The position numbers were made by a program, and so were the translations under genes. Below the pieces are notes generated by a model. That model was given only the letters and a program-made list of their open reading frames with translations. It had not been told where the DNA came from and searched no databases. From Escherichia phage nasanit, in the sequence record PV245933.1: 39,625 bases of DNA; one strand, written 5' to 3'. Shown here piece after piece: positions 4,728 through 23,216 of the stretch (positions are counted from its first letter, which is position 1; each line of letters opens with the position of its first letter).

Positions 4728-4857
4728 GTACGACATGCAATAAGAGAGAACGGATAGGAACTGCGAAACCTGCCGGATACTCGCCAAGGATGAGGCACTG
4801 CTTATTGGAGTATGCAGACACGATAAGCACCACGTTATCTTCTAGTCAAATTAAGTG

Positions 4858-4886
4858 TTGACACGGTAACGAAAGCACGATAAGAT
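4858..4886 (+). promoter_or_regulatory. Sigma70-type early promoter (A3-like)
   Basis: TTGACA, 17-nt spacer, TAAGAT; downstream sequence GTACCAC..AGTGAGTCACCACACTGAAAGGTGATGCGGTCTAACGAAACCTGACC resembles T7 A3 region. Confidence 0.55.
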
Positions 4887-5004
4887 GTACCACGAAATGA
4901 CGGAACAGTGAGTCACCACACTGAAAGGTGATGCGGTCTAACGAAACCTGACCAAAGACGCTCTTTAACAATCTGGATAATAGCTCTTGAGTGTACCGTA
5001 TAAG

Positions 5005-5050
5005 CGAATAACTCAAGGTCGCACTGAAAGCGTGGCCTTTATGATATTCA
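5005..5050 (+). promoter_or_regulatory. Conserved processing hairpin (RNase III site-like, R0.3 position)
   Basis: ATAACTCAAGGTCGCACTGAAAGCGTGGCCTTTATGATATTCA. Confidence 0.45.
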
Positions 5051-5079
5051 CTTAACGAACTAACATGAGGTAACACCTA

Positions 5080-5538
5080 ATGATTTTCACTAAAGAGCCT
5101 GCTAATGTCTTCTATGTACTGGTGTCAGCTTTCCGTTCCAACCTCGACGATGAGGTGAATATGAGTCGTCACCGCCACATGGTAAGCACTTTACGTGCCG
5201 CACCGGGTCTTTATGGCTCCGTTGAGTCAACCGATTTGACCGGGTGCTATCGTGAGGCAATCGCAAGCGCACCGACTGAGGAAAAAACGGTTCGTGTACG
5301 CTGCAAGGACAAGGCGCAGGCACTCAATGTTGCACGCTTAGCTTGCAATGAGTGGGAGCAAGATTGCGTACTGGTATACAAATCACAGACTCACACGGCT
5401 GGTCTGGTGTACGCTAAAGGAATCGACGGTTACAAGGCTGAACGTCTGCCGGGTAGCTTCCAAGAAGTGCCTAAAGGCGCACCGCTTCAAGGTTGCTTTA
5501 CGATTGATGAGTTCGGTCGCCGCTGGCAAGTACAGTAA
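5080..5538 (+). CDS. 0.3: S-adenosylmethionine-cleaving enzyme (T3 gene 0.3-type SAM hydrolase/lyase), anti-restriction
   Basis: 152 aa starting MIFTKEPANVFYVLVSAF; matches my recollection of T3 gp0.3 (152 aa), not T7 Ocr (117 aa, acidic). Confidence 0.8.
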   Translation: MIFTKEPANVFYVLVSAFRSNLDDEVNMSRHRHMVSTLRAAPGLYGSVESTDLTGCYREAIASAPTEEKTVRVRCKDKAQALNVARLACNEWEQDCVLVYKSQTHTAGLVYAKGIDGYKAERLPGSFQEVPKGAPLQGCFTIDEFGRRWQVQ

Positions 5539-5540
5539 GT

Positions 5541-5585
5541 GATAAACTCAAGGTCGCTCAATATGAGTGGCCTTTCATGATTATC
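5541..5585 (+). promoter_or_regulatory. Conserved processing hairpin (RNase III site-like)
   Basis: GATAAACTCAAGGTCGCTCAATATGAGTGGCCTTTCATGATTATC. Confidence 0.45.
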
Positions 5586-5611
5586 ATTTAACATGCAATA
5601 GGACTAACACC

Positions 5612-5812
5612 ATGAGTAAACTTCTGGCAACATCTAAAATCAAAGGTCAATGCACTGTAACACTGCGAGAGTATGATCACGGGGCAATGGGTAGCACCTA
5701 CGTTGTACGATACGGTAAACAAGTCACGCATTGGGTGAACGAGGTTTTGGCGCAAGAAGAATACCAAGCCTGCGTGATACACCAAGCAACATGTGCAGGC
5801 TGGAATGACTGA
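5612..5812 (+). CDS. Hypothetical early protein, 66 aa
   Basis: ORF MSKLLATSKIKGQC... with AGGA SD; the track start at 5567 lies inside the upstream hairpin and is rejected. Confidence 0.5.
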   Translation: MSKLLATSKIKGQCTVTLREYDHGAMGSTYVVRYGKQVTHWVNEVLAQEEYQACVIHQATCAGWND

Positions 5813-5859
5813 TGGCGCGATTTGCACGCACTGGACAATAGCCTTTTAGTCTAACCAGT

Positions 5860-5905
5860 GATAAACTCAAGGTCGCTCCTAGCGAGTGGCCTTTCATGAT
5901 TATCA
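5860..5905 (+). promoter_or_regulatory. Conserved processing hairpin (RNase III site-like), near-identical duplicate of 5541-5585
   Basis: GATAAACTCAAGGTCGCTCCTAGCGAGTGGCCTTTCATGATTATC. Confidence 0.45.
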
Positions 5906-5933
5906 CTTTGAAACAACGCACGGGATTAATATC

Positions 5934-6071
5934 ATGCTGAAACATTACGTCATGCCTATCCACACCAAGAACGGCGCTACAGTTTGCACACCTGATGGCT
6001 TCGCAATGAAACAACGAATCGAACGCCTTAAGCGTGAACTGCGCACAAATCGCAAGATCAACAATATCTAA
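5934..6071 (+). CDS. Hypothetical early protein, 45 aa, basic C-terminus
   Basis: ORF MLKHYVMPIHTKNG...; weak SD; track start at 5886 lies in the hairpin and is rejected. Confidence 0.4.
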   Translation: MLKHYVMPIHTKNGATVCTPDGFAMKQRIERLKRELRTNRKINNI

Positions 6072-6176
6072 ATCTAATTACATTTGACACTGGATAATGC
6101 ACGAAGTGAGCGCTAGCGACATCATGGGCGCTCTCTCTCCCTCTTAAAGTAAACTAACTAAATAGGACACAATCTA

Positions 6177-7274
6177 ATGAACTACACCGACATTCAGGCA
6201 CGTCTGGCAATCATCAAGTCTCTCCCGATTAGTGAACTGGACAAGCGCCAGCCTCTTTTGGTTGCACTGGCTGCTGACATCGTGAACGGTGAAACATGCG
6301 ATGGTGACGATACAAACGGGTCGCAGTGTCTTGAGTATCAGGACTGGTGGAACACCTTGGGCGCTCTCATGCGTGATGCAGGTTTTCGTATGTTGGGTAA
6401 TGGTCATTTTAGTGCGGCCTACTCGCATGAACTGTTACCGGGTCGAGTCGTCAAGGTTGGCTTTAAGAAAGAGGATTCAGGCGCTGCGTACACTGCGTTC
6501 TGTAGGATGCACCAAGGCCGAGCGGGTATCCCTAACGTCTATCACGTAGCACGTCATGCAGGTTGCTATACGGTCGTACTGGACCACTTAAAAAGCTGTG
6601 ACGACGATAATTATGACCATGAGGCATACGCTGACCTCGCACGTTACTTTGTGGAGTCGGATTGCCATGACGCAAGCGACTTTGCACCGGGTGACTACGA
6701 GTTCATCGAGACTTGCAAAATGATTCGTGAGTTCTTCAAAGGGATTGCATCTTTCGACATGCATCGCGGGAACATTATGTTCGACGATAACGATGTTCCG
6801 TACATCACTGACCCGGTTAGTTTCTCACATGACCGTGAACGTGAGGGCGGTTTGCCTCTGGACCCTGAAGAACTGCTGGCTGAGGTCGAGGCTGTAGCGC
6901 AAGAACGCATGATTGAACGTTGCCGCAACCGCAAGGCCAAGTGTGACCCTAACGGCTCCTTTCAGGTTAACCGCAAGGCCGCAATGAAACGCCGCAAGCG
7001 TAACCGTAAGTTACGTGCTAAACATGCAGCGGAAGGAATGCACCAGTTTGTCAAAGGGCGGCTTGAGCGTAGAGCTATTGACCGAAATGAACGCCGTGCT
7101 GAGATGTTTATGGGGTCTGCATGGCATTACGCATGGTTGCATAATGGTAACGCAACGTTCCGCAAGGTTGAACAAGTGAACGGCCTCAAGTGGCAACTAG
7201 GGGACCGCCTAGCAATCCAAGCGGGTCTCCCTTTGAACATCGACAAGTTACTTGACGCACAACTGAAAGGCTGA
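6177..7274 (+). CDS. 0.7: Ser/Thr protein kinase and host transcription shut-off protein, gp0.7
   Basis: 365 aa; N-terminal kinase region with MLGNGHFSAAYSH, KVGFKKEDSGAAYTAFCRM, FDMHRGNIMF; Arg/Lys-rich C-terminal domain as in T7 gp0.7. Confidence 0.9.
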   Translation: MNYTDIQARLAIIKSLPISELDKRQPLLVALAADIVNGETCDGDDTNGSQCLEYQDWWNTLGALMRDAGFRMLGNGHFSAAYSHELLPGRVVKVGFKKEDSGAAYTAFCRMHQGRAGIPNVYHVARHAGCYTVVLDHLKSCDDDNYDHEAYADLARYFVESDCHDASDFAPGDYEFIETCKMIREFFKGIASFDMHRGNIMFDDNDVPYITDPVSFSHDREREGGLPLDPEELLAEVEAVAQERMIERCRNRKAKCDPNGSFQVNRKAAMKRRKRNRKLRAKHAAEGMHQFVKGRLERRAIDRNERRAEMFMGSAWHYAWLHNGNATFRKVEQVNGLKWQLGDRLAIQAGLPLNIDKLLDAQLKG

Positions 7275-11264: not shown

Positions 11265-12296
11265 ATGGAAATCACATTCAAGACTAACCCATTCAAAGCA
11301 GTATCCTACGTTGAGTCTGCCATTAAGAAAGCACTCGACAAGGCTGGCTACCTGATTGCTGACACTAAGCATGATGGTGTACGTGGTAACATCGTGGTTG
11401 ACAATACGGCTGACTGCCTGTGGCTGTCCCGTGTCTCCAAGACCATCCCCGCGCTTGAGCACCTTAATGGGTTCGACCAACGCTGGGCTAATGTTCTCAA
11501 AGATGACCGCTGGATTTTCCCTGATGGCTTCATGCTTGATGGTGAACTGATGGTCAAAGGTGTTGACTTCAACACAGGGTCTGGCCTACTGCGTACCAAG
11601 TGGCTCAAGAAGACGAACTGTGGATTTGATATTGGTGGAGTAGAGCCTCTCAAGGGGAGTAAAGTAGACTTCTGCTTAGACCCTAAGAAACTTAAGGTTG
11701 TCCTGTATGCCGCTATGCCGTATCACGATATGGTAGAAGGCAAAGAGTATGGCGTTATGTCCCTCCTGATGCAAGAGCATGTGCGTTCCCTCATTCCGGT
11801 TCTTAGTGAACACTTCCCGGAAATCACTTGGGAACTCTCTGAGGCCAAAGAAGTCTACGACATGGTAGAACTTCAGGAACTCTACGAGAAAGCCCGTGCC
11901 GATGGTCATGAAGGTCTGGTCGTCAAAGACCCGCTTGAAGTCTACAAGCGTGGCAAGAAGTCTGGCTGGTGGAAGATGAAGCCTGAGAATGAAGCTGATG
12001 GTATTATCGTTGGCCTCAATTGGGGTACTCCGGGTCTGGCTAATGAAGGTAAAGTGATTGGCTTCGAGGTTCTCTTGGAGTCCGGTCGTGTAGTCTCTGC
12101 CAACAACATTAGCCAAGCGTTGATGGATGAGTTCACTGCTGCCGTCAAACATGCTGAGTCTGTGGGTATGGGTATGCCGTACACTGGCTTCGCCTGTCAG
12201 GTTGCCTACATGGAGGAAACTCCAGACGGTTCTCTGCGTCACCCATCGTTCGTTATGTTCCGTGGAACTGAGGATAACCCAAAGGAGAAAATGTAA
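11265..12296 (+). CDS. 1.3: ATP-dependent DNA ligase, gp1.3
   Basis: 343 aa; adenylation motif KHDGVRG near N-terminus; overall T7 ligase pattern. Confidence 0.92.
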   Translation: MEITFKTNPFKAVSYVESAIKKALDKAGYLIADTKHDGVRGNIVVDNTADCLWLSRVSKTIPALEHLNGFDQRWANVLKDDRWIFPDGFMLDGELMVKGVDFNTGSGLLRTKWLKKTNCGFDIGGVEPLKGSKVDFCLDPKKLKVVLYAAMPYHDMVEGKEYGVMSLLMQEHVRSLIPVLSEHFPEITWELSEAKEVYDMVELQELYEKARADGHEGLVVKDPLEVYKRGKKSGWWKMKPENEADGIIVGLNWGTPGLANEGKVIGFEVLLESGRVVSANNISQALMDEFTAAVKHAESVGMGMPYTGFACQVAYMEETPDGSLRHPSFVMFRGTEDNPKEKM

Positions 12297-12478
12297 TGCT
12301 TATCTTTGACGAGAACGGTTGGAGAGTGTATCAACACCCACACCTGATGATATTCCACATATCAAAGTGGATGGAAGGAGATGACCGGAGAAGCTACGGG
12401 AGAACTTGGGACTACTTTACTGTCCATGAGTGCCATAGTATTAAGGAAGTCAAAGAGTACCTACGAAACAATATGTAA
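12296..12478 (+). CDS. Hypothetical protein, 60 aa (gene 1.4 position)
   Basis: ATG overlaps ligase stop; intact ORF. Confidence 0.45.
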   Translation: MLIFDENGWRVYQHPHLMIFHISKWMEGDDRRSYGRTWDYFTVHECHSIKEVKEYLRNNM

Positions 12479-12486
12479 AGACAAAT

Positions 12487-12520
12487 GGTCAGTCCTTAAC
12501 GGGCTGGCCTTTTTGTGTTT
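12487..12520 (+). terminator. Intrinsic terminator (early terminator TE position)
   Basis: RNA hairpin GGUCAGUCC-UUAAC-GGGCUGGCC (G-U wobbles) followed by UUUUUGUGUUU. Confidence 0.6.
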
Positions 12521-12543
12521 CTATACGACTCACTATGGAGGAA
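12521..12543 (+). promoter_or_regulatory. Phage RNAP promoter (phi1.5 position), variant
   Basis: CTATACGACTCACTATGGAGGA. Confidence 0.6.
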
Positions 12544-12550
12544 CTACCTC

Positions 12551-12631
12551 ATGCTATTTCTAATTGCTGCTGCTATCTTTGCCACGTTTGCCTTCGTTAT
12601 CATTGACGACAACTGCTGGCCGGATTGCTAA
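12551..12631 (+). CDS. Possible 26-aa hydrophobic peptide (gene 1.5 position)
   Basis: MLFLIAAAIFATFAFVIIDDNCWPDC; GGAGGA SD; very short, weak evidence. Confidence 0.25.
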   Translation: MLFLIAAAIFATFAFVIIDDNCWPDC

Positions 12632-12651
12632 TACGACTCACCTATGGAGGA
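12629..12651 (+). promoter_or_regulatory. Phage RNAP promoter (phi1.6 position), variant
   Basis: TAATACGACTCACCTATGGAGGA. Confidence 0.55.
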
Positions 12652-12658
12652 CACAACT

Positions 12659-12922
12659 ATGTTAAGACTTCACTTCAACAAATCTAATGGCATCTTCTCT
12701 GCGCGTGGCGCTGACCGCTCTACGGTTCTGGCCTCTGAGAAACACGCAGTCATCCCTAAAGTGCTTGGCTCGACCATTGAGTTAGCACCTCGTGTTCACG
12801 CTGTAATCACCACTGGCTTATATAAAGAAGCGACCACTGGCTCCCGGCCTTTCATTCCGGTTCTCGTCACCCGTTTTCCTAAAGTCCGTCTGGTAATTGC
12901 GCGTATCAAGGAGGTGTTCTAA
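12659..12922 (+). CDS. gp1.6-like hypothetical protein (87 aa)
   Basis: Start MLRLHFNK with GGAGGA SD; track start 12644 lies inside the promoter. Confidence 0.55.
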   Translation: MLRLHFNKSNGIFSARGADRSTVLASEKHAVIPKVLGSTIELAPRVHAVITTGLYKEATTGSRPFIPVLVTRFPKVRLVIARIKEVF

Positions 12923-13233
12923 TGGTCTGCATGGCATGTTTAGAGAATGATGACCGCTACCCTCACACCTGTGAACCTGTAGCTAAACCACAAGATATAG
13001 AGGGTGTTCGCAAGCCGAGCCACTATATGTTGTTTGATGACATTGAGGCTATCGAGGTGATTGCCCGTTCGATGACCCGTGAACAGTTCAAAGGGTACTG
13101 CTTAGGGAATATCCTTAAGTACCGCCTCCGTGCTGGTAAGAAATCCGAACTGGCATTCTTAGAGAAGGACATGGCGAAAGCTGGGTTCTACGGTGAACTG
13201 TACGAGAAACATAAAGGTAAATGCCATGCTTAA
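12922..13233 (+). CDS. 1.7: gp1.7-like nucleotide kinase, short form (103 aa)
   Basis: ACLENDDRYPHTC and KPSHYMLFDDIEAIEVIARSMT..KGYCLGNILKYRLRAGKK match T7 gp1.7 N- and C-terminal blocks; central part of the 196-aa T7 protein absent. Confidence 0.7.
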   Translation: MVCMACLENDDRYPHTCEPVAKPQDIEGVRKPSHYMLFDDIEAIEVIARSMTREQFKGYCLGNILKYRLRAGKKSELAFLEKDMAKAGFYGELYEKHKGKCHA

Positions 13234-13324
13234 ACCTAGCGAATGGTGTGAGCGTATGTTTGAAAAGACAGGTAACACCGACTACCTTGAATTATATAAT
13301 CACTGGAAGGAGAGAGGACAATGA
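13226..13324 (+). CDS. gp1.8-like small protein (32 aa)
   Basis: [32 protein letters not shown]; overlaps 1.7 end and gene 2 start. Confidence 0.45.
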
Positions 13325-13512
13325 GCACTCTGAATAAAGGGTCACTGGTAAACGGTGACAAGAAGTTCTTCGCTACGGTAGAAGGCCAAGGCCAATCGTT
13401 CGAAGTACCTGTGTTCGCTACGTCTCTTGAAGAGGCCAATGAGTTAGCTGAGTGGCAATACGTCCCTGCTGGCTTCGCTGTAACACGCATCCGTCCAGAC
13501 CGTAAGGTTTAA
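13321..13512 (+). CDS. 2: Inhibitor of host RNA polymerase, gp2
   Basis: 63 aa; ...[33 protein letters not shown] very close to T7 Gp2. Confidence 0.9.
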
Positions 13513-13532
13513 TAGGACTCACTAATGGGAGA
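13510..13532 (+). promoter_or_regulatory. Phage RNAP promoter (phi2.5 position)
   Basis: TAATAGGACTCACTAATGGGAGA. Confidence 0.7.
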
Positions 13533-13582
13533 CACTAACGTTTCCCCACTTTAACTTTCAGAAACTTTAAAGGAGAATCATT

Positions 13583-14287
13583 ATGGCATTCGCAAAACGT
13601 AAAGTATTCACTTCCGCTCGTGGTGTTGCTGAACCTTACTGCTATCTGGCAAAGCCGGACTTCGGTAGTGGCGACTTCAAGAACGAACGTGGTGTCTACA
13701 AGGTGTCACTTACTGTATCCAACAACGACCCTCGCTGTCAGAAAATGATTGACGAGATTGTCGAAGCCCATGAAGCGGACTATGCTGCTCGTCTTGAAGA
13801 GTACGAAGCGAACCCGCCGAAAGTTGTCAAGGGTAAGAAACCGCTGAAGCCGTATGTTGGCGACATGCCTTTCATGGATAACGAAGACGGAACCACTACG
13901 TTCAACTTCAAGTGCTACGGCTCGTTCACTGACAAGAAGACTGGTGAGAACAAACCAATCGACTTGGCTATTGTGGACTCCAAAGGTAAGCGCATCCGTG
14001 GCGAGCGTCCAGCTATCTCTGGTGGCTCTGAACTGAAGATTAAATACACTCTGTTCCCTTATGGTTGGTCTGCTGTGGCAGGTGCTTCCGTTAAGCTGCA
14101 ACTGGATTCCGTGATGCTGATTAAGCTGGTCGAGTTCGGTGGTGGTGATGACGATTGGGGTGATGAAATCGAAGAAGATGGCTACGAAGCTGATGAAAGC
14201 CAGACCAGTCAACGTCCTAAAAATGATTCTGGTTGGAACGAAGAACCGGAAGATGAAGGCGACGAAGATGAAGATGGCGACTTCTAA
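13583..14287 (+). CDS. 2.5: Single-stranded DNA-binding protein, gp2.5
   Basis: 234 aa; acidic C-terminal tail ending DEDEDGDF with terminal Phe; T7 gp2.5 pattern. Confidence 0.95.
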   Translation: MAFAKRKVFTSARGVAEPYCYLAKPDFGSGDFKNERGVYKVSLTVSNNDPRCQKMIDEIVEAHEADYAARLEEYEANPPKVVKGKKPLKPYVGDMPFMDNEDGTTTFNFKCYGSFTDKKTGENKPIDLAIVDSKGKRIRGERPAISGGSELKIKYTLFPYGWSAVAGASVKLQLDSVMLIKLVEFGGGDDDWGDEIEEDGYEADESQTSQRPKNDSGWNEEPEDEGDEDEDGDF

Positions 14288-14733
14288 TGGCTAAGGGATA
14301 TGCAGGTCGAGGCACTCGTGTGGGTGCCTTTCGCTCTGGCTTGGAGGATAAGGTAAGCAAACAGCTTGAGTCAAAGAACATTAAGTTCGACTATGAGCGC
14401 TGGCGTGTACCATATGTTGTCCCTGCAAGCAACCATACCTATTGCCCGGACTTCCTGTTACCTAATGGCATCTTTGTGGAAACCAAAGGTCTGTGGGACA
14501 GTGATGACCGCAAGAAACACTTACTGATTCGTGAACAGTATCCTGAACTTGATGTGCGCATCGTGTTCTCTTCAAGCCGCTCCAAGCTGTACAAAGGGTC
14601 TCCGACCAGCTACGGTGAGTGGTGCGAGAAGCATGGCATTCTGTTTGCTGATAAATTAATTCCAGTTGATTGGCTGAAAGAGCCTTCTAAGGATGTTCCA
14701 TTCGATAAATTTAAAGAGGTGAAGAAGAAATGA
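14287..14733 (+). CDS. 3: Endonuclease I (Holliday junction resolvase), gp3
   Basis: 148 aa; conserved blocks PASNHTYCPDFLLPNGIFVETKG and KLYKGSPTSYGEWCEKHGI. Confidence 0.93.
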   Translation: MAKGYAGRGTRVGAFRSGLEDKVSKQLESKNIKFDYERWRVPYVVPASNHTYCPDFLLPNGIFVETKGLWDSDDRKKHLLIREQYPELDVRIVFSSSRSKLYKGSPTSYGEWCEKHGILFADKLIPVDWLKEPSKDVPFDKFKEVKKK

Positions 14734-15185
14734 GTAAGGTACAATTCAAACCACGCGCTGTGACAGAAGCAATCTTTGTCCACTGTAGCGCAACCAAGGC
14801 GTCCATGAATGTTGGACTGCGTGAAATCCGTCAGTGGCATAAAGAACAGGGCTGGCTTGATGTAGGCTACCACTTCATTATTCGCCGTGATGGTACAATC
14901 GAAGAAGGCCGTCCGGTCGGAGTCGTTGGGTCTCACGTTAAGGACTGGAACAGTAAGTCGGTCGGTGTGTGCCTCGTTGGTGGTATCGACGATAAGGGCA
15001 AACACGAAGCTAACTTTACGCCAGCACAGATGCACTCTCTTAAAGAGAAACTCGCAGACCTGCTGGACATGTATCCAGATGCAGAAGTAAAAGCGCACCA
15101 CGATGTGGCACCTAAAGCGTGTCCGTCATTCAACTTGAGCCGCTGGCTGAAGACTGGTGAATTAGTAACTAGTGATTGGGGTTAA
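14730..15185 (+). CDS. 3.5: N-acetylmuramoyl-L-alanine amidase (T7 lysozyme) / RNAP inhibitor, gp3.5
   Basis: 151 aa; AIFVHCSATK, GYHFIIRRDGT, HHDVAPKACPSF motifs of T7 lysozyme. Confidence 0.95.
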   Translation: MSKVQFKPRAVTEAIFVHCSATKASMNVGLREIRQWHKEQGWLDVGYHFIIRRDGTIEEGRPVGVVGSHVKDWNSKSVGVCLVGGIDDKGKHEANFTPAQMHSLKEKLADLLDMYPDAEVKAHHDVAPKACPSFNLSRWLKTGELVTSDWG

Positions 15186-15189
15186 TATT

Positions 15190-15282
15190 ATGATGGTTAT
15201 CCACGAGATGGGTCTGTACGATTTGATTTATCGCCTCGCGTTCATGCTGGCAATGGTCTACATTCTTACCCGCAAGGATTAA
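15190..15282 (+). CDS. Possible 30-aa hydrophobic peptide
   Basis: MMVIHEMGLYDLIYRLAFMLAMVYILTRKD; short, weak evidence. Confidence 0.3.
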   Translation: MMVIHEMGLYDLIYRLAFMLAMVYILTRKD

Positions 15283-15301
15283 TAGAACTCACTATGGGAG
15301 A
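15280..15301 (+). promoter_or_regulatory. Phage RNAP promoter (phi3.8 position), variant
   Basis: TTAATAGAACTCACTATGGGAGAG followed by 5' hairpin GGGAGAG..TCTCCC. Confidence 0.65.
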
Positions 15302-15352
15302 GCCGAAAGGTTTCTCCCTTTGTTCGCTAAAATTGTATAAGGAGTAATCACT

Positions 15353-17304
<1,952 letters not shown>

Positions 17305-17306
17305 AT

Positions 17307-17329
17307 CAATACAACTCACTAATGGGACA
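17307..17329 (+). promoter_or_regulatory. Phage RNAP promoter (phi4.3 position), variant
   Basis: CAATACAACTCACTAATGGGACA. Confidence 0.65.
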
Positions 17330-17372
17330 GACACTCTGTTCCCATTTATCAATCCGCTTAAGGAGAATCACA

Positions 17373-17585
17373 ATGTTTAAATTCATCAATACTCTTGGTA
17401 AGCTGTTAGTTAAAATGTACTTCCGTGAAGCTAAACGTCTGAACGACAAGGCACGTAAGGACGCTGAACAGGCTCAACGCTTGGCGAAGCAGGCACGTCT
17501 ACTGTCTGAAGATGCAAGTGCTGGCGTTACGTCTGCTGCTAAGATTGCAGCGAAAGCAACCGACCTCAACAAGTTCTTCCTGTAA
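17373..17585 (+). CDS. 4.3: gp4.3-like protein (70 aa)
   Basis: Start MFKFINTLGKLL after AAGGAGA SD; same length as T7 gp4.3. Confidence 0.65.
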   Translation: MFKFINTLGKLLVKMYFREAKRLNDKARKDAEQAQRLAKQARLLSEDASAGVTSAAKIAAKATDLNKFFL

Positions 17586-17764
17586 TGGTTACGATAACCC
17601 TTGTGCTCACTCTGATAACTGTGAGCGGACAAACAATAAGTCAAGTCCCTATCACGGCACCGAAGGCTGAGGCATACGAAATATGCGAACAGCAAGGGCG
17701 CTCATGGTCTAAGGACTTGATGAAGAACGGCAGGGTTTTCACTGCCAACTACAACTGTATCTAA
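17585..17764 (+). CDS. Hypothetical small protein, 59 aa, N-terminal hydrophobic segment
   Basis: MVTITLVLTLITVSG... (signal peptide or TM-like), 3 Cys; ATG overlaps 4.3 stop. Confidence 0.45.
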   Translation: MVTITLVLTLITVSGQTISQVPITAPKAEAYEICEQQGRSWSKDLMKNGRVFTANYNCI

Positions 17765-17778
17765 TAGGAGTACACAAC

Positions 17779-18081
17779 ATGGCTATTAAATTCCCCGGTA
17801 ACACTATCCGTCTGTCCGACACCATCGACCAGTATGCTCGTCGGGTGCACATCAACGTCCGTAATGGCAAGGTCACTTTGGTCTACCGCTGGAAGGACCA
17901 TAAGTCCACCAAGGCGCACACACAGCGTGTGACTCTGGATGACACACAGGCAGGTCGTCTGCTGGCTTCCGTTGCTGTAGCCGCTACTGTGGCTGTAGGT
18001 GAAGACAATGTGCGTCAGGTTCTGCTGGGTAAGACCGTGGAGTCTGAGGGCAACATGCTTGCTGACAAGTGTGAAGAGTAA
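17779..18081 (+). CDS. Hypothetical protein, 100 aa
   Basis: Intact ORF with TAGGAG SD. Confidence 0.6.
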   Translation: MAIKFPGNTIRLSDTIDQYARRVHINVRNGKVTLVYRWKDHKSTKAHTQRVTLDDTQAGRLLASVAVAATVAVGEDNVRQVLLGKTVESEGNMLADKCEE

Positions 18082-18082
18082 G

Positions 18083-18127
18083 AGTTAAACTAAAGGTCAT
18101 CTTAACGGGTGGCCTTCGTGATTAACT
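18083..18127 (+). promoter_or_regulatory. Conserved processing hairpin (RNase III site-like, R4.7 position)
   Basis: GAGTTAAACTAAAGGTCATCTTAACGGGTGGCCTTCGTGATTAAC. Confidence 0.45.
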
Positions 18128-18138
18128 TTTGTATGAAA

Positions 18139-18162
18139 TCTATTCAACTCACTAATGGGAGA
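18139..18162 (+). promoter_or_regulatory. Phage RNAP promoter (phi4.7 position), variant
   Basis: TCTATTCAACTCACTAATGGGAGA. Confidence 0.6.
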
Positions 18163-18170
18163 ACAACAAT

Positions 18171-18569
18171 ATGCGTAATCGTAATGTAATCGAAGCTGAA
18201 ATCTCTAAGCTGCAAGCTGAACTGGCTGATGTCAAAGAGTATGAATGTGCTCGTGACTCTGCGGTACACATCCTGAAGAACTTAGGGTGGACTCGCTCCC
18301 GTGGTCAATGGGTGAAACCTGCCAAGGCAAACACCAAGCTGTTCGATAAGGACACCATGACCCACATTAAGGCTGGTGACTTCTGCGCATCAACTGAGAC
18401 ATCATCTCTATGGTACGTGCGCACGGTCGATGGCAACATCTGCTGGTGCTCACGAGTGTCCCGCATTACTCCTAACGGAACCTTAGTGACCAGCAACAAC
18501 GTTGGAATCAAAGCTGAGAACCTGAAGGTAATCAACGTGAAAGACTATATGGGATACACCCATCGTTAA
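18171..18569 (+). CDS. gp4.7-like hypothetical protein (132 aa)
   Basis: Intact ORF directly downstream of promoter; size close to T7 gp4.7 (135 aa). Confidence 0.6.
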   Translation: MRNRNVIEAEISKLQAELADVKEYECARDSAVHILKNLGWTRSRGQWVKPAKANTKLFDKDTMTHIKAGDFCASTETSSLWYVRTVDGNICWCSRVSRITPNGTLVTSNNVGIKAENLKVINVKDYMGYTHR

Positions 18570-18588
18570 ACTTTAAGGAGTAAACACA

Positions 18589-20703
18589 ATGTTACTATCC
18601 GACATCGAAACAAACGGGTTGCTGCACAACGTTAGTCAATTTCACTGTGCGGTGACTTACGACTACACAACTGACCAGTACATCCGTTACCGACCTGATG
18701 ACTTTGGGGCGTACATTGATGCACTCGAAGCCGAGGTTGCTCGTGGTGGTCTCATTGTGTTCCACAACGGTCACAAGTATGACGTTCCTGTTATCGAGAA
18801 GCTGGCGAAGCTGATTCTGAATCGTGACGTTAAGTTCCCGAAAGAGAACGTCTTGGACACCTTAGTGATGTCCCGACTGATTTACTCTAACATCAAAGAC
18901 ACTGATGCTGGTCTGCTGCGTTCTGGCAAGCTGCCAGGTAAACGCTTTGGCTCTCACGCTCTTGAGGCGTGGGGCTACCGCTTAGGCGAAATGAAGGGTG
19001 AGTACAAGGACGACTTTAAGAAGTCACTGGAAGAGTCTGGTGATGAATACGAAGACGGGATGGAGTGGCTGTTCTTCAACGAAGACATGATGGAATATAA
19101 CGTTCAAGACGTTGTAGTCACCAAGGCACTCTTTGAGAAACTGTGTAGCAACACTTTCTATTTCCCGAACGAGACACCCGCTGGAAGCACAGAAGCAGAA
19201 CGTTTCTGGAACGGTAGCCTTGAGGCTGTCAAGCTGGAACATGATGCTGCATGGTTGTTAGCTAAGATGGAGCGTAACGGTTTTCCTATTGACATTAAGT
19301 CTCTTGAGAACCTGTACGCAGAACTCGCTGGTAGACGTGGTGAGCTACTCGTAGAGTTAACCAATACGTTTGGCTCATGGTACTCCGCTAAGGGCGGTAC
19401 TGAAGCATTCAGGCATCCTCGTACCGGAAAGCCGCTCACCAAGTATCCTCGTGTGAAGTACCCGAAACAGGGTGGTATATTTAAGAAGCCTAAGAACAAG
19501 AAGCAACGTGAAGGCTTAGAGCCATGTGAGTTGGATACCCGCGATTACGTTGAGGGTGCTCCGTATACTCCGGTTGAGCACGTTGTGTTTAACCCTTCGA
19601 GCCGAGACCACATCACTCGTGTTCTCACCAAGGCTGGTTGGGTTCCCGTTGAGTTCACCCCAAGTGGTGCACCAAAGGTAGACGATGAGGTCTTAGAGCA
19701 CGTTAAGGTAGACGACCCTGATGCACAGCGTTGCATTGAGTTGATTAAAGAATACCTTATGATTCAGAAACGTATCGGTCAGGTTGCTGAGGGTGATAAC
19801 GGCTGGCTCCGAATGATTGGAGAAGATGGTCGTATTCACGGAAGCGTTAACCCTAACGGTGCGGTAACTGGACGTGCAACCCATAGTTTCCCTAACGTGG
19901 CACAGGTGCCTTCTATCCGTGCTGCTTATGGCGAACCTTGCCGTGCTGCTTTCGGTGCCGAGCACAACATGAAAGACGGTAAGCCAGACCCTTGGATTCA
20001 AGTTGGTGTGGATGCGTCCGGCCTTGAGCTACGTTGCTTGGGCCACTTCATGTATCGTTATGATGAGGGTGAGTACGTTGAGACTATCCTCACTGGTGAC
20101 ATCCATACGAAGAACCAATTGGCTGCGGGCCTACCAACTCGTGACAACGCTAAGACATTTATCTATGGGTTCCTCTATGGTGCTGGCGCTGCGAAGATAG
20201 GACAGATTGTTGGTGGTACTGCCGAAGACGGTAAGCGACTCATAAAGAACTTCCTTGAGCAAACCCCTGCTATCGCTGCATTACGTGAAGCAATCACAGG
20301 GACACTCGTCAAGGACTCTAAGTGGGTTGGTGGTGAACAGAAAGTAACTTGGAAGCGCCGTTGGGTTCGAGGCTTGGATGGTCGTAAAGTACACGTCCGT
20401 AGTCCTCACGCTGCGTTGAACACCTTGTTGCAATCTGCTGGTGCTCTGATTTGTAAACTGTGGATTGTAGAGACTGAGCGTCTGTTACTGGAAGCTGGCC
20501 TGAAGCATGGCTGGGATGGTGACTTTGCGTATATGGCTTGGGTACACGATGAGATTCAGGTAGCTGCACGTACTCAAGAGATTGCCGATAAGATTGTAGA
20601 GTTGGCACAGCAAGCAATGCGTAATGTGGGAGACCACTTTAACTTTAGATGTCAGTTAGATACCGAAGGTAAGACTGGCGCAAACTGGAAAGATTGTCAC
20701 TAA
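18589..20703 (+). CDS. 5: DNA polymerase (family A, with 3'-5' exonuclease), gp5
   Basis: 704 aa (same as T7 gp5); N-terminal exo motif MLLSDIETNGL; overall T7 gp5 pattern. Confidence 0.97.
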   Translation: MLLSDIETNGLLHNVSQFHCAVTYDYTTDQYIRYRPDDFGAYIDALEAEVARGGLIVFHNGHKYDVPVIEKLAKLILNRDVKFPKENVLDTLVMSRLIYSNIKDTDAGLLRSGKLPGKRFGSHALEAWGYRLGEMKGEYKDDFKKSLEESGDEYEDGMEWLFFNEDMMEYNVQDVVVTKALFEKLCSNTFYFPNETPAGSTEAERFWNGSLEAVKLEHDAAWLLAKMERNGFPIDIKSLENLYAELAGRRGELLVELTNTFGSWYSAKGGTEAFRHPRTGKPLTKYPRVKYPKQGGIFKKPKNKKQREGLEPCELDTRDYVEGAPYTPVEHVVFNPSSRDHITRVLTKAGWVPVEFTPSGAPKVDDEVLEHVKVDDPDAQRCIELIKEYLMIQKRIGQVAEGDNGWLRMIGEDGRIHGSVNPNGAVTGRATHSFPNVAQVPSIRAAYGEPCRAAFGAEHNMKDGKPDPWIQVGVDASGLELRCLGHFMYRYDEGEYVETILTGDIHTKNQLAAGLPTRDNAKTFIYGFLYGAGAAKIGQIVGGTAEDGKRLIKNFLEQTPAIAALREAITGTLVKDSKWVGGEQKVTWKRRWVRGLDGRKVHVRSPHAALNTLLQSAGALICKLWIVETERLLLEAGLKHGWDGDFAYMAWVHDEIQVAARTQEIADKIVELAQQAMRNVGDHFNFRCQLDTEGKTGANWKDCH

Positions 20704-20718
20704 TAGGAGACACATATC

Positions 20719-21021
20719 ATGGCTATTACTAAACGTTTTAAAGTATCATTCGAAGTCACCGCTGTAATTGATAGCGAGTCTGAGAACAACCTGAATGATT
20801 TACTCGTAGACATCGCTAAGAAAGCTGCCACTGGTGAGGAACTTAACCCGTTTAAACGTGAGTTGCTAGTTCAAGGTCTAACCTATGGACCAGAAGGTGC
20901 TGCCGCATTCTGTATCAAGCAGGGTCTTCGCAATTTTATTCGTGAGGGCCACGGCGAACTGAGTTCAACCGAGCGAAAGCTCATGCGATTCTCTCCAGCT
21001 ACTATTCGTGAGGTGAAGTAA
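20719..21021 (+). CDS. 5.5: gp5.5-like protein (100 aa)
   Basis: Starts MAITKRFKVSFEVTAVIDSE; position and size as T7 gp5.5. Confidence 0.65.
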   Translation: MAITKRFKVSFEVTAVIDSESENNLNDLLVDIAKKAATGEELNPFKRELLVQGLTYGPEGAAAFCIKQGLRNFIREGHGELSSTERKLMRFSPATIREVK

Positions 21022-21230
21022 TGGGTGATTATCTACGTGTACTGGCGGCTATCAAAAGCTGCCCCAAGACCTTTCAGTCGAACTATGTGCGCAACAATGC
21101 GTCACTGGTGGCTGAGGCTGCGAGTCGTGGTCATATCTCTTGCCTATCAGTCGATGGGCGTAATGCTGGCGCTTGGGAAGTAACAGGCGCTGGTGTCCGA
21201 TTCCTGAAGAAGATGGGAGGTTGCGTATGA
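21021..21230 (+). CDS. 5.7: gp5.7-like protein (69 aa)
   Basis: Same size as T7 gp5.7; start overlaps 5.5 stop; stop overlaps gene 6 start. Confidence 0.65.
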   Translation: MGDYLRVLAAIKSCPKTFQSNYVRNNASLVAEAASRGHISCLSVDGRNAGAWEVTGAGVRFLKKMGGCV

Positions 21231-22141
21231 GCGCAATTACACTGAAGGAGTTCTACGAGTTACGCCAAGGGAAATCCGATAAGGGTGTTCTCGTAATGGA
21301 TGGTGACTGGCTGGTATTCCAAGCGATGGCAGCAAGCGAAGTCGAGACCGATTGGGGTGACGATGTGTGGACCTTAGAGTGTGACCACGGGAAAGCGTGG
21401 AACATTCTGGTTGACTCTATCAAGTCCTATGCGAGTCGTAAGAAGGCTTGGCGTGATGCACCTATCGTACTGGCCTTCACGGACGCTGTGAACTGGCGTA
21501 AGGAACTAGTGGACCCAACCTATAAGGAGAACCGTAAGGCATCCCGTAAGCCTGTAGGATACCGTGCGTTCGTCGAGCGTGTTCAAGCATGTGAGGACTG
21601 GATGTCTATCCTTGAAGACCGACTTGAGGGTGATGACGTAATGGGAATCATTGGGTCTGGTGCTAAACATTTTGGTTTCAAGAAGGCTGTACTGGTCTCC
21701 TGTGATAAGGACTTTAAGACCATCCCTGATTGTGACTTCTTGTGGTGCACGACTGGTAACATCTTGACTCAAGACCAGACTACTGCTGACTACTGGCACA
21801 TCTATCAGACCATTAAAGGTGACTTGACGGATGGTTATGGTGGCATTCCGGGCTGGGGCGAGACTACCGCTGAGTGGCTGGAGAACCCGTATGCCTTTGA
21901 ACAGGTTGAGAAAACTTTCAAGTCTGGTGCCCGTAAGGGACAGACAGTTCTCGAATGGAAAAAGGTTGACATGGGTGAGCGAACCCTATGGGAAGCCATT
22001 GTGACACTTGGTGCAAAAGCTGGGATGACCGAAGAGGAAATCATTAAGCAAGGCCAGATGGCTCGTATACTTCGATTCGAAGAGTACAACTTTATCGACA
22101 AGGAGATTTACCTATGGTCGCCGGAACAGTTGCGTTCGTAA
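21227..22141 (+). CDS. 6: 5'-3' exonuclease, gp6
   Basis: 304 aa from MSAITLKEFYELRQGKSDKGVLVMDGDWLVFQAM; T7 gp6 pattern. Confidence 0.93.
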   Translation: MSAITLKEFYELRQGKSDKGVLVMDGDWLVFQAMAASEVETDWGDDVWTLECDHGKAWNILVDSIKSYASRKKAWRDAPIVLAFTDAVNWRKELVDPTYKENRKASRKPVGYRAFVERVQACEDWMSILEDRLEGDDVMGIIGSGAKHFGFKKAVLVSCDKDFKTIPDCDFLWCTTGNILTQDQTTADYWHIYQTIKGDLTDGYGGIPGWGETTAEWLENPYAFEQVEKTFKSGARKGQTVLEWKKVDMGERTLWEAIVTLGAKAGMTEEEIIKQGQMARILRFEEYNFIDKEIYLWSPEQLRS

Positions 22142-22200
22142 TGTTCGCAATCGTAGCCTTCGCTATGGTGTGGGCTGCATTTATAGCTAAGAGTGTGTAA
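22141..22200 (+). CDS. Possible 19-aa hydrophobic peptide (gene 6.3 position)
   Basis: MFAIVAFAMVWAAFIAKSV; ATG overlaps gene 6 stop; very short. Confidence 0.2.
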   Translation: MFAIVAFAMVWAAFIAKSV

Positions 22201-22228
22201 CTCTAGGCATTCTTCTCGACAGTGAAAT

Positions 22229-22251
22229 CAATACGACTCACTATTGAGAGG
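22229..22251 (+). promoter_or_regulatory. Phage RNAP promoter (phi6.5 position)
   Basis: CAATACGACTCACTATTGAGAGG. Confidence 0.75.
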
Positions 22252-22302
22252 GGTGCCTATATGATACCTACTTTAAGTTTAACTTTAAGGAGAACATTAA
22301 TT

Positions 22303-22548
22303 ATGTTAACCCCTATCAAGAAGTATATGGAGAACCCACAAGATATTCCTAACGTTCCTCGTGCAACTATGGAGTACCTACAGGTTCAATACAATGCTGG
22401 ATATGCTATTCAGTCAGGACTAATCAACCGATTGAAACAGGCTGGATGGTCTGAAAGCTACATCGCTGGGTTCCTCGCGGGTCTCAACTATGCGTCTCAA
22501 ACTCTGGACGACATGGAGGCAATCCGTAAGGAACAGGCTGAGTCGTAA
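22303..22548 (+). CDS. gp6.5-like hypothetical protein (81 aa)
   Basis: Start MLTPIKKYMEN after TTTAACTTTAAGGAGA leader; track start 22222 rejected. Confidence 0.6.
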   Translation: MLTPIKKYMENPQDIPNVPRATMEYLQVQYNAGYAIQSGLINRLKQAGWSESYIAGFLAGLNYASQTLDDMEAIRKEQAES

Positions 22549-22557
22549 GGAGGTCTT

Positions 22558-22833
22558 ATGTGCTTTTCGCCAAAGATTAAGACACCTAAAGTAAAGACTG
22601 AATCCATCCGAGCTATCGACCCTGCGCCACTGACGGAAGAACCGAAAGGTATTCTCTTTGGTGGCGAAGAGGACAATGATAGCGGGACCTCTTCTGAGGT
22701 GCCAACGGGTGGCAAGAAGTCCCTGAAGGTGAAACTGGATGACTCCGTTGAGAAGTCCAAGAAGGCAGACTCCGATGCTGCCAAGAAGAAGTCTAAATCT
22801 GGTATCCGTACCAGTATCTTTAAGAAGAAATAA
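22558..22833 (+). CDS. 6.7: gp6.7-like virion protein (91 aa)
   Basis: Starts MCFSPKIKTPK; Lys-rich C-terminus. Confidence 0.75.
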   Translation: MCFSPKIKTPKVKTESIRAIDPAPLTEEPKGILFGGEEDNDSGTSSEVPTGGKKSLKVKLDDSVEKSKKADSDAAKKKSKSGIRTSIFKKK

Positions 22834-22847
22834 ATAGGAGGTCTATC

Positions 22848-23216
22848 ATGGGTTGGGGTAAAAAGATTCGCAAATCAGTTAAGAAGGCTGTCAAGAAAGT
22901 AACCAAGCCTATCGAGAAGGTAGTCAAGGAAACTGGTAAGGCAGTTGAGAAGGTCGGTAAGGAAGCTGGTAAGGTCGTTGGTGGCGTTGCTGGTGCACTT
23001 GCTGGTGGTGGTAAGCCTGATGTACAGGTGGTTGAACAAGCTGCTCCTGTAGCTGCTCCGGCCCCGGCTGCTGCACAGATTATTGAGCCACCGAGTAAAG
23101 ACGATGTGGATACCGATGATGATGCACAGACCGAATCTGGCAAGAAGAAAGCCCGTGCTGGCGGTAAGAAATCTCTGAGTGTCGCTCGCAGTTCTGGCGG
23201 TGGTCTGAATATCTAA
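22848..23216 (+). CDS. 7.3: gp7.3-like virion/tail-associated protein (122 aa)
   Basis: Lys-rich repetitive N-terminus, Ala/Pro-rich middle, basic C-terminus; position between 6.7 and 8. Confidence 0.7.
   Translation: MGWGKKIRKSVKKAVKKVTKPIEKVVKETGKAVEKVGKEAGKVVGGVAGALAGGGKPDVQVVEQAAPVAAPAPAAAQIIEPPSKDDVDTDDDAQTESGKKKARAGGKKSLSVARSSGGGLNI

What the first reader, a model, noticed from the sequence alone, without database searches (positions are those of the whole stretch)
12296..22833. Compact gene set: several T7 accessory genes absent and gene 1.7 shortened
Relative to T7 gene content as I recall it, I find no Ocr, no HNH/homing endonuclease genes (3.8 and 5.3 slots), no gene 5.9 (RecBCD inhibitor; gene 6 starts directly at the 5.7 stop) and no gene 7 (6.7 is followed directly by 7.3). 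Gene 1.7 is a 103-aa short form retaining only the N- and C-terminal blocks. The 3.8 slot holds only tiny hydrophobic ORFs. Absence of a RecBCD inhibitor and of Ocr implies different host-defence countermeasures, possibly served by the unassigned ORFs.
Basis: partly seen in the sequence, partly recalled or inferred. Interest (0 to 1): 0.35.

Follow-up and report, generated by a model that had tools for sequence, protein, structure and literature searches.

The report
Ordinary Berlinvirus accessory-gene content
The T7 genes reported as missing really are missing, but this is the normal, already-annotated gene layout of a known group of T7 relatives (Berlinvirus, e.g. phage 285P), and the lost anti-restriction function is covered by a well-known T3-type enzyme elsewhere in the genome.

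Summary
The window is a circularly permuted, complete T7-like genome of the genus Berlinvirus. Its closest relative is Escherichia phage 285P (95.7% identity over 96% of 12296-22833).

**Absences confirmed.** tBLASTn with all 56 T7 proteins, and profile HMMs against every six-frame segment, find no Ocr, gp0.4, gp2.8, gp3.8, gp5.3, gp5.9, gp7 or gp7.7. The region is 94.6% coding. Each of its seven gaps of 20 nt or more (largest 102 nt) holds a phage promoter, so there is no room for hidden genes.

**Gene 1.7.** It is a 103-aa form that keeps a CxxC...DDRYPHxC motif and the DUF3310 domain.

**Not unusual.**
- 285P is annotated with the same layout.
- At least 11 described Berlinviruses have the same direct 5.7/6 junction, while close relatives carry a 59-aa gp5.9 there.
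- gp1.7 homologues range from 84 to 181 aa, and forms of about 100-109 aa are common.

**Interpretation only partly right.** The 0.3 slot (5080-5538) encodes a SAM lyase 99% identical to T3 gp0.3, which is a known anti-restriction function. gp5.9 is dispensable and polymorphic within the genus. No unassigned ORF resembles an acidic DNA mimic.

The genome (39.6 kb) is not smaller than T7 overall. Low interest; already known.

The parts
5080..5538 (+). Gene 0.3 slot. It encodes a T3-type S-adenosylmethionine lyase (152 aa), the non-homologous functional replacement for Ocr. It lies outside the finding's coordinates.
   Evidence: Pfam PF23780, E=2.5e-42. 99% protein identity to T3 gp0.3. 90.5% DNA identity to T3.
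12296..12478 (+). orf60: a 60-aa protein of unknown function. It overlaps the ligase stop codon and is the last gene before the early terminator. It is not homologous to T7 gp1.4.
   Evidence: phrog_6957, E=6.6e-25. Homologues in 242 phage records, including unrelated myoviruses. 100% identical in phage pO103, 87% in SPLA4, and 67% in an unannotated copy in 285P.
12487..12509 (+). Terminator-like hairpin followed by a T run, at the position of the early terminator TE.
   Evidence: BA14 annotates TE at the equivalent position, just before promoter phi1.5.
12922..13233 (+). Gene 1.7, short allele (103 aa). It has an N-terminal CxxC-x7-H-x-C motif plus a C-terminal DUF3310 domain. It lacks T7 residues 1-20 and about 36-113.
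   Evidence: tBLASTn. Pfam PF11753, E=1.9e-22. Alignment. 285P annotates an identical-length gp1.7.
14284..14290 (+). Junction of genes 2.5 and 3, overlapping by 1 nt. There is no gene 2.8 (HNH endonuclease).
15190..15282 (+). orf30: a tiny hydrophobic ORF directly after gene 3.5, conserved across Berlinviruses.
   Evidence: phrog_25602, E=1.6e-20. Intact alleles at 72-97% amino-acid identity in 5 relatives. Annotated as 'unknown' in 285P and BA14.
15279..15301 (+). Phage RNA polymerase promoter (phi3.8 equivalent), TTAATAGAACTCACTATGGGAGA, followed by a short inverted repeat.
   Evidence: Read directly. Matches the BA14 annotated promoter GTAATAGAACTCACTATGGGAGA.
15353..15439 (+). orf28: a tiny hydrophobic ORF with an AAGGAG Shine-Dalgarno sequence, just upstream of gene 4A (ATG at 15450).
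   Evidence: phrog_25193, E=4.9e-20. 86-93% identity in 5 relatives.
17585..17764 (+). orf59: a 59-aa protein of unknown function between genes 4.3 and 4.5, with a hydrophobic N-terminus.
   Evidence: phrog_6794. 100% identical in 285P, BA14, CarlSpitteler and SPLA4. Restricted to Autographiviridae, 76 records.
20704..20718 (+). 15-nt spacer between gene 5 and gene 5.5. The 5.3 slot is empty.
21021..21230 (+). Gene 5.7 (69 aa, 83% identical to T7 gp5.7).
21227..22141 (+). Gene 6 exonuclease (304 aa). Its ATG overlaps the 5.7 stop codon (ATGA), so the 5.9 slot is empty.
   Evidence: The same contiguous junction occurs in 11 distinct described phages.
22114..22200 (+). 28-aa hydrophobic ORF in the 6.3 slot. 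It is not homologous to T7 gp6.3, but BA14 annotates it as gp6.3.
   Evidence: 100% identical to BA14 gp6.3.
22558..22833 (+). Gene 6.7 (91 aa).
22834..22847 (+). 14-nt spacer containing AGGAGG. The gene 7 slot is empty.
22848..23216 (+). Gene 7.3 (122 aa). Gene 8 follows after 13 nt (ATG at 23230), so there is no gene 7.7.
   Evidence: Pfam PF11653, E=6.8e-25..

Best explanation
The window is a complete Berlinvirus genome (subfamily Studiervirinae) carrying the accessory-gene configuration already annotated in Escherichia phage 285P.

The T7 genes it lacks fall into three classes:
1. Selfish HNH homing endonucleases (2.8, 3.8, 5.3, 7.7). These are scattered sporadically among T7-like phages.
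2. Dispensable host-interaction genes that are present or absent within the genus itself (5.9, 7, 0.4).
3. Ocr, whose slot is filled by a non-homologous analogue, the T3-type SAM lyase.

Gene 1.7 carries one of many natural N-terminal length variants. It keeps the invariant DUF3310 domain, which is inferred to be the functional core of the dTMP/dGMP kinase.

The tight junctions, with overlapping or closely spaced start and stop codons and no pseudogene remnants, fit cassette-like gain and loss by homologous recombination between the conserved flanking genes. The phage therefore replicates with the T7 core set plus SAM lyase, and does without a RecBCD inhibitor, as many of its described relatives do.

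*Shown:* the absences, the layout, the identity to known phages, and the polymorphism within the genus. *Inferred:* that the short gp1.7 is an active kinase, and that loss of gp5.9 is neutral or advantageous.
For: **Identity of the genome.** 95.7% identity to 285P over 96% of the region, and 93-95% to about 60 other Berlinviruses.

**Same layout in a described phage.** The 285P annotation shows a 103-aa gp1.7, two tiny ORFs after 3.5, gene 5.7 overlapping gene 6, and the order 6.7, 7.3, 8.

**Presence/absence across relatives.**
- gp5.9 is present in SPLA4, Berlin and P694. It is absent in the window, 285P, CarlSpitteler and BA14.
- gp7, Ocr, gp0.4 and a 169-aa gp1.7 occur only in P694.
- HNH genes occur only in BA14 and Berlin.

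**The 5.7/6 junction.** It is contiguous in 11 distinct phages. It carries an extra 177 nt (gp5.9) in many others whose flanks are up to 98% identical, and an extra 284 nt in a third group.

**No hidden homologues.**. Coding density is 94.6%, and every gap of 20 nt or more contains a phage promoter.

**SAM lyase.**; PMC8594841.

**gp1.7 length variation.** Homologues span 84-181 aa, and 26 of the 120 listed clusters are 100-109 aa. There are 34 invariant columns, all from residue 28 onward. The Berlin record already notes 'similar to T7 1.7 at C-terminus', and phage vB_ShiP-A7 has a 97-aa nucleotide kinase (PMC8427288).

**gp5.9 is dispensable.** RefSeq notes it as non-essential. T7 mutants in gene 5.9 escape retron Ec48 and remain viable (bioRxiv 10.1101/2020.06.21.156273).
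Against: - No experiment on this phage or on any short gp1.7 was available. Kinase activity of the 103-aa form rests on domain conservation only.
- The AlphaFold model of the DUF3310 domain matches no solved fold, so structure offers no independent support.
- The direction of change at each slot (loss or gain) was not resolved phylogenetically.
- The window is only 93-96% identical to any deposited genome, so it is a distinct isolate whose phenotype is unknown.
Confidence: 0.9

Rival explanations
1. Divergent homologues of Ocr, gp5.9, gp7 or the HNH endonucleases are present but too diverged for simple comparison.
For: Berlinvirus gp5.9 is only 43-50% identical to T7 gp5.9, over about 55% of its length. 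So strong divergence of these small proteins does occur.
Against: - HMMs that include the Berlinvirus-type gp5.9, P694 gp7 and Ocr, and seven HNH proteins find nothing better than E=0.58 in any six-frame segment.
- Pfam and PHROGs scans of every ORF without a T7 homologue give no such family.
- The slots are 0-15 nt long, and the region is 94.6% coding.
Confidence: 0.02
2. The missing genes are assembly or deletion artefacts of this particular sequence, for example a laboratory deletion mutant or a collapsed assembly.
For: The window is a permuted assembly that opens between genes 17 and 17.5 rather than at the physical genome end.
Against: - Identical junctions occur in independently sequenced phages. 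The 5.7/6 junction is found in 11 distinct isolates, and the whole layout in 285P.
- The reading frames and start/stop overlaps are clean.
Confidence: 0.02
3. The functions of gp5.9 (and possibly gp7 or gp0.4) are supplied by non-homologous analogues among the conserved unassigned small ORFs: orf60, orf59, orf185, and the tiny membrane ORFs.
For: - orf60 lies upstream of the early terminator, so it is probably an early gene. It is spread across unrelated virulent phages (242 records), a distribution typical of host-takeover or anti-defence genes.
- orf59 and orf185 are conserved and have no known function.
Against: - The same ORFs also occur in relatives that do carry gp5.9. orf60 and orf59 are both present in SPLA4. 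So they do not substitute for it in a complementary pattern.
- None has the acidic DNA-mimic composition of gp5.9 or Ocr. Their acidic content is at most 16%, against 22-29% for the mimics.
- gp5.9 is dispensable anyway.
Confidence: 0.12
4. Absence of gp5.9, and the trimmed gp1.7, are adaptive. They remove proteins that trigger guard-type abortive-infection systems (retron Ec48 for RecBCD inhibitors, Avs5 for gp1.7), so the presence/absence polymorphism is kept by balancing selection.
For: - T7 escapes retron Ec48 through gene 5.9 mutations, and gp5.9 expression kills Ec48-carrying cells.
- T7 gp1.7 activates EfAvs5 (PMC11897194).
- The 5.9 slot shows at least three states among phages whose flanks are 94-99% identical. 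gp1.7 N-termini are hypervariable while the C-terminus is invariant.
Against: - There are no data on which part of gp1.7 Avs5 senses.
- No test shows that Berlinvirus-type gp5.9 triggers Ec48.
- The polymorphism could equally be neutral mosaicism.
- This is an evolutionary gloss that is compatible with the best explanation rather than an alternative to it.
Confidence: 0.3

Closest known systems
Escherichia phage 285P (GQ468526 / NC_015249; genus Berlinvirus)
   Same: - Gene order and accessory content match across the region: a 103-aa gp1.7, two tiny ORFs in the 3.8 slot, and no 2.8, 3.8, 5.3, 5.9, 7 or 7.7.
- It has a SAM lyase at the 0.3 slot, gene 1.05, and the 185-aa ORF between 18.5 and 19.
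- DNA identity over the region is 95.7%.
   Different: - The window's 0.3 gene is T3-like: 99% protein identity to T3, against 90% for 285P.
- The window carries a T7-like 0.6A (91% identity) that 285P lacks.
- Its orf60 is only 67% identical to the unannotated 285P copy.
- Overall the window is a distinct isolate, about 93-96% identical to known genomes.
Bacteriophage T7 (NC_001604; Teseptimavirus)
   Same: - Full core set with conserved synteny: genes 0.7, 1, 1.1-1.3, 1.6, 2, 2.5, 3, 3.5, 4, 4.2-4.7, 5, 5.5, 5.7, 6, 6.5, 6.7, 7.3 and 8-19, at 37-84% amino-acid identity.
- The same type of phage promoter.
- Similar genome length.
   Different: - T7 has Ocr, 0.4, 0.5, 1.4, 2.8, 3.8, 4.1, 5.3, 5.9, 7 and 7.7, and a 196-aa gp1.7.
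- The window has instead a SAM lyase, gene 1.05, orf60, orf59, orf185 and a longer tail fibre.
Bacteriophage T3 (NC_003298; Teetrevirus)
   Same: - SAM lyase at the 0.3 slot, 99% identical as protein.
- A gene 1.05 domain.
- No annotated genes 3.8, 7 or 7.7, and a small ORF after gene 3.5.
   Different: T3 keeps gp5.9 (98% identical to T7's), an HNH gene at the 5.3 slot, and a 163-aa gp1.7 with an unrelated N-terminus.
Berlinviruses with fuller accessory sets (P694, Yersinia phage Berlin, SPLA4, ErnstBeyeler)
   Same: Same genus, with 89-98% identical flanking genes.
   Different: - They carry a 59-aa gp5.9 between genes 5.7 and 6.
- P694 also carries gene 7, Ocr plus 0.4, and a 169-aa gp1.7 with a duplicated CxxC...DDRYPH module.

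Membership tests
Genus Berlinvirus (Autographiviridae, Studiervirinae) | High nucleotide identity and collinearity with recognised members over most of the genome | tested here: met
   95.7% identity over 96% of 12296-22833 to 285P. 93.6% over 91% of the first 25 kb to phage Carena.
Genus Berlinvirus (Autographiviridae, Studiervirinae) | Single-subunit T7-type RNA polymerase, with cognate phage promoters spread along one coding strand | tested here: met
   An 883-aa gp1, 76% identical to T7 RNA polymerase. 15 promoter-like sites matching the BA14 consensus, all on the + strand.
gp1.7 nucleotide kinase family (Pfam DUF3310, PF11753) | DUF3310 domain scoring above the Pfam gathering threshold | tested here: met
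   E=1.9e-22, 79.5 bits against a cutoff of 24, residues 29-90. phrog_2585 'nucleotide kinase', E=3.7e-58.
gp1.7 nucleotide kinase family (Pfam DUF3310, PF11753) | dTMP/dGMP kinase activity | not testable with these tools
   The activity is known only for the 196-aa T7 protein (cited in PMC11897194, and PMC7693777). The AlphaFold model of the short form matches no solved kinase fold.
T3-type S-adenosylmethionine lyase (Pfam PF23780) | Full-length domain match and close identity to T3 gp0.3 | tested here: met
   E=2.5e-42, profile positions 1-132 of 133. 99% identity over 100% of T3 gp0.3.
T3-type S-adenosylmethionine lyase (Pfam PF23780) | SAM cleavage and protection from type I restriction | not testable with these tools
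   Inferred from 99% identity to the characterised T3 enzyme. The BASEL study reports that type I restriction-modification systems were largely ineffective against all the tested Autographiviridae, including the SAM-hydrolase-bearing Studiervirinae.
Ocr (T7 gp0.3 DNA mimic) | Sequence or profile similarity to Ocr; highly acidic protein of about 117 aa | tested here: not met
   tBLASTn best E=0.83. HMM best E=1. No ORF has comparable acidity.
gp5.9 RecBCD inhibitor | Sequence or profile similarity to T7/T3-type or Berlinvirus-type gp5.9; a gene between 5.7 and 6 | tested here: not met
   tBLASTn best E=0.46. No tBLASTn hit for the Berlinvirus-type queries. 5-sequence HMM best E=0.63. Genes 5.7 and 6 overlap by 4 nt.
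HNH homing endonucleases (T7 gp2.8, 3.8, 5.3, 7.7 and relatives) | Similarity to any of seven HNH proteins from T7, T3, BA14 and Berlin, or a Pfam HNH domain in any ORF | tested here: not met
   tBLASTn E>=0.19. HMM best E=1.4. No HNH family in the Pfam scans.
T7 gp7 (host range) | Similarity to T7 or P694 gp7; a gene between 6.7 and 7.3 | tested here: not met
   tBLASTn E>=0.29. HMM best E=1.4. The spacer is 14 nt.

The most novel reading that the evidence does not exclude
Berlinviruses that lack gp5.9, including this one, are not simply tolerating RecBCD.

Either they evade it through a non-homologous factor among the conserved unassigned ORFs. The early gene orf60 (12296-12478) is the most attractive candidate, because it is shared with unrelated T4-like, rV5-like and jumbo phages.

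Or the three-state polymorphism of the 5.9 slot, together with the hypervariable gp1.7 N-terminus, is kept by balancing selection. The opposing pressures would be host nucleases and guard-type defences that sense these proteins (retron Ec48, Avs5).
Probability: 0.2. Interest if true: 0.45.

Novelty: already known. Interest (0 to 1): 0.08.

Why it matters
It matters little as a discovery. The layout has been in GenBank since 285P, BA14 and Berlin were deposited, and the replacement of Ocr by SAM lyase in non-Teseptimavirus Studiervirinae is stated in the literature.

Its practical value is as a caution: T7 is not the reference gene set for all T7-like phages.

It also points to natural pairs of Berlinviruses that differ in carrying gp5.9, such as CarlSpitteler and ErnstBeyeler. 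These could be used to measure the cost and benefit of a RecBCD inhibitor in the presence of guard systems.

Tried and rejected
1. **Hidden divergent homologues.** tBLASTn at word size 2 with E up to 10 and family HMMs against all six-frame segments gave only noise.
2. **Genes on the minus strand.** The eight longest antisense ORFs (143-247 aa) have no Pfam family.
3. **A solved structure for the short gp1.7.** There was no PDB sequence match at E<=1. The AlphaFold model has mean pLDDT 77: the helical C-terminal domain scores 82-93 and the N-terminal 40 residues are poor. It had no Foldseek PDB match better than E=3.2. The fold therefore gives no functional evidence.
4. **Primary gp1.7 biochemistry.** The paper by Tran et al., J Biol Chem 2012, is not held in the library under either identifier. 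I could not check whether truncated forms are active.
5. **Acidic DNA-mimic screen of the unassigned ORFs.** No candidate was found.
6. **'Compact genome' as a whole-genome property.** Rejected. The window is 39,625 bp against 39,937 bp for T7. Losses in the class II region are offset by gene 1.05, orf185, orf59, orf60 and a longer tail fibre.

Full report
**What the window is.** The ORF map and tBLASTn with all 56 annotated T7 proteins show a complete T7-like genome. It is circularly permuted, so the window opens between genes 17 and 17.5. The physical left end lies near 4043, where the BA14 terminal repeat starts to align. Megablast of 12296-22833 finds Escherichia phage 285P at 95.7% identity over 96% of the query, and about 60 further phages at 90-95%. 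The first 25 kb gives the same picture, with Carena, CarlSpitteler, P483, P694 and 285P as top hits. The fetched records among these are classified in the genus Berlinvirus. No deposited genome is identical, so this is a distinct isolate of a known genus.

**Checking the observation.**
- tBLASTn gives only noise (E>=0.16) for T7 gp0.3, 0.4, 0.5, 1.4, 2.8, 3.8, 4.1, 5.3, 5.9, 6.3, 7 and 7.7. gp1.5 also has no homologue: its one weak hit (E=0.004) is an off-locus minus-strand match. All other T7 genes are recovered in T7 order.
I built HMMs from T7, T3 and Berlinvirus versions of gp5.9, gp7, Ocr, gp0.4 and seven HNH endonucleases, plus the 75-aa protein that fills the 5.3 slot in some relatives. 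I searched all 1405 six-frame stop-to-stop segments of the window. Nothing scored better than E=0.58, while the control gp1.7 HMM scored 1.7e-62.
- There is no room for hidden genes. The region 12296-22833 is 94.6% coding. Its seven gaps of 20 nt or more (largest 102 nt) each contain a T7-type phage promoter.
- The junctions read as described. The gene 6 ATG overlaps the 5.7 stop codon (ATGA at 21227-21230). Gene 6.7 is followed after 14 nt by gene 7.3. Gene 7.3 is followed after 13 nt by gene 8, gene 5 after 15 nt by 5.5, and genes 2.5 and 3 overlap by one base.
- The 3.8 slot holds a 30-aa and a 28-aa hydrophobic ORF, separated by the promoter TTAATAGAACTCACTATGGGAGA. Both ORFs match PHROG families and stay intact in diverged relatives.

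**Gene 1.7.** The 103-aa product aligns to T7 gp1.7 residues 21-35 and 96-196. It keeps a CxxC-x7-H-x-C motif (MVCMACLENDDRYPHTC) and the C-terminal DUF3310 domain (PF11753, E=1.9e-22). It lacks T7 residues 1-20 and the Cys-rich middle segment. This is not a peculiarity of this genome.
- 285P, Berlin, SPLA4 and CarlSpitteler encode forms of 103-104 aa. BA14 encodes 123 aa, P694 169 aa with a duplicated N-terminal module, and T3 163 aa with an unrelated N-terminus.
- Among the 120 best of 790 homologous protein clusters, lengths run from 84 to 181 aa, and 26 clusters are 100-109 aa.
- In a 49-sequence alignment the 34 invariant columns all fall from residue 28 onward.
- The family is therefore a constant DUF3310 core with a modular, hypervariable N-terminus.
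- Whether the short form is an active dTMP/dGMP kinase is inferred, not shown. The AlphaFold model (pLDDT 82-93 for the helical C-terminal domain) has no significant match among solved structures.

**The layout is lineage-typical and polymorphic within the genus.** The 285P annotation has exactly this organisation. A presence/absence matrix across seven Berlinviruses plus T3 and T7 shows:
- gp5.9, as a 59-aa Berlinvirus type, in SPLA4, Berlin and P694, but not in the window, 285P, CarlSpitteler or BA14;
- gene 7, Ocr and 0.4 only in P694;
- HNH genes only in BA14 (a 2.8-like gene before gene 5) and Berlin.

A 301-nt query spanning the 5.7/6 junction is covered at 80% or more by 84 records. It is contiguous in 11 distinct phages: S523, D226, BSP161, SEqdws-315, Carena, CarlSpitteler, 285P, P483, A7, BA14 and pO103. 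It is interrupted by 177 nt (gp5.9) in many others, and by about 284 nt in a third group. Flanks are up to 98-99% identical across these states. This is the signature of cassette exchange by recombination between conserved neighbouring genes.

**The interpretation.** For restriction, the answer is known and lies outside the stated coordinates. The 0.3 slot (5080-5538) encodes an S-adenosylmethionine lyase (PF23780, E=2.5e-42) that is 99% identical to T3 gp0.3. The BASEL study states that every Studiervirinae genus other than Teseptimavirus carries this enzyme at the 0.3 locus, and that type I restriction-modification systems were largely ineffective against all the tested phages (PMC8594841).

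For RecBCD, several lines agree that the inhibitor is dispensable:
- gp5.9 is annotated as non-essential.
- T7 gene 5.9 mutants are viable and escape retron Ec48.
- CarlSpitteler, which lacks 5.9, has E. coli K-12 as its recorded host, and the BASEL study isolated its phages on K-12 MG1655 deltaRM.

Among the unassigned ORFs, none has the acidic DNA-mimic composition of gp5.9 or Ocr. orf60 and orf59 also occur in SPLA4, which does have gp5.9, so they do not complement its absence. A non-homologous analogue cannot be excluded, but nothing supports one.

**An evolutionary gloss (inference).** gp5.9 triggers retron Ec48, and T7 gp1.7 activates Avs5 (PMC11897194). The polymorphism at the 5.9 slot and in the gp1.7 N-terminus could therefore reflect selection to shed sensed proteins. 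This is compatible with the main explanation, but it is untested.

**'Compact' is regional only.** The stretch from the ligase gene to gene 8 is 1,752 bp shorter than in T7. The whole window, however, is 39,625 bp against 39,937 bp for T7. It carries genes T7 lacks: gene 1.05, orf185, orf59, orf60, and a 642-aa tail fibre.

**Verdict.** The feature is the already-annotated accessory-gene configuration of 285P-like Berlinviruses. Novelty: already known. Interest: low.

Noticed in passing
window 12296-12478 (with the terminator-like hairpin at 12487-12509 and the phi1.5 promoter at 12521-12543): orf60 overlaps the ligase stop codon and lies upstream of the early terminator, so it is probably the last early gene. 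Homologues occur in 242 phage records, including unrelated T4-like (Phi1, JSE), rV5-like and jumbo (UB, Turkey3) phages, as well as Cronobacter and Serratia phages. 285P has an unannotated copy that is 67% identical. Function unknown.
   Followed up: partly
window 21227-21230; related records listed: The 5.7/6 slot of Berlinviruses has at least three states: empty, +177 nt (gp5.9), and about +284 nt encoding a different hypothetical protein (Salmonella phages DS_BP2, LPST144, LPST153, SWJM-03, BP12A). The third-state gene was not examined.
   Followed up: no
window 4844-6071: The early region is mosaic. The 0.3 gene is T3-like: 99% protein and 90.5% DNA identity to T3, against about 78% DNA identity to other Berlinviruses. 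A T7-like 0.6A ORF (5934-6071, 91% amino-acid identity to T7) is absent from the six other Berlinviruses sampled.
   Followed up: partly
L005 (P694) 5157-6215: Berlinvirus P694 carries a SAM lyase and also an Ocr homologue (94% identity) plus gp0.4 (84%) in tandem. That gives it two anti-restriction genes.
   Followed up: no
window 1057-1614: A 185-aa ORF lies between genes 18.5 and 19, a position that is empty in T7. It matches phrog_20446 and has no Pfam family. It is conserved in 285P (96%) and CarlSpitteler (92%), and partly in Berlin (58%).
   Followed up: partly
window 5567-5590 and 5886-5909: The same short leader, which translates as MAFHDYH from a GTG, precedes both 0.6-type ORFs. It also matches an intergenic repeat in P694 and T7. 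It may be an RNase III or processing-site repeat rather than coding sequence.
   Followed up: no
window 17585-17764: orf59, between genes 4.3 and 4.5, has a hydrophobic N-terminus resembling a signal sequence. It is 100% identical in four Berlinviruses despite 1-3 nucleotide differences. Homologues are restricted to Autographiviridae, including Klebsiella phages.
   Followed up: partly
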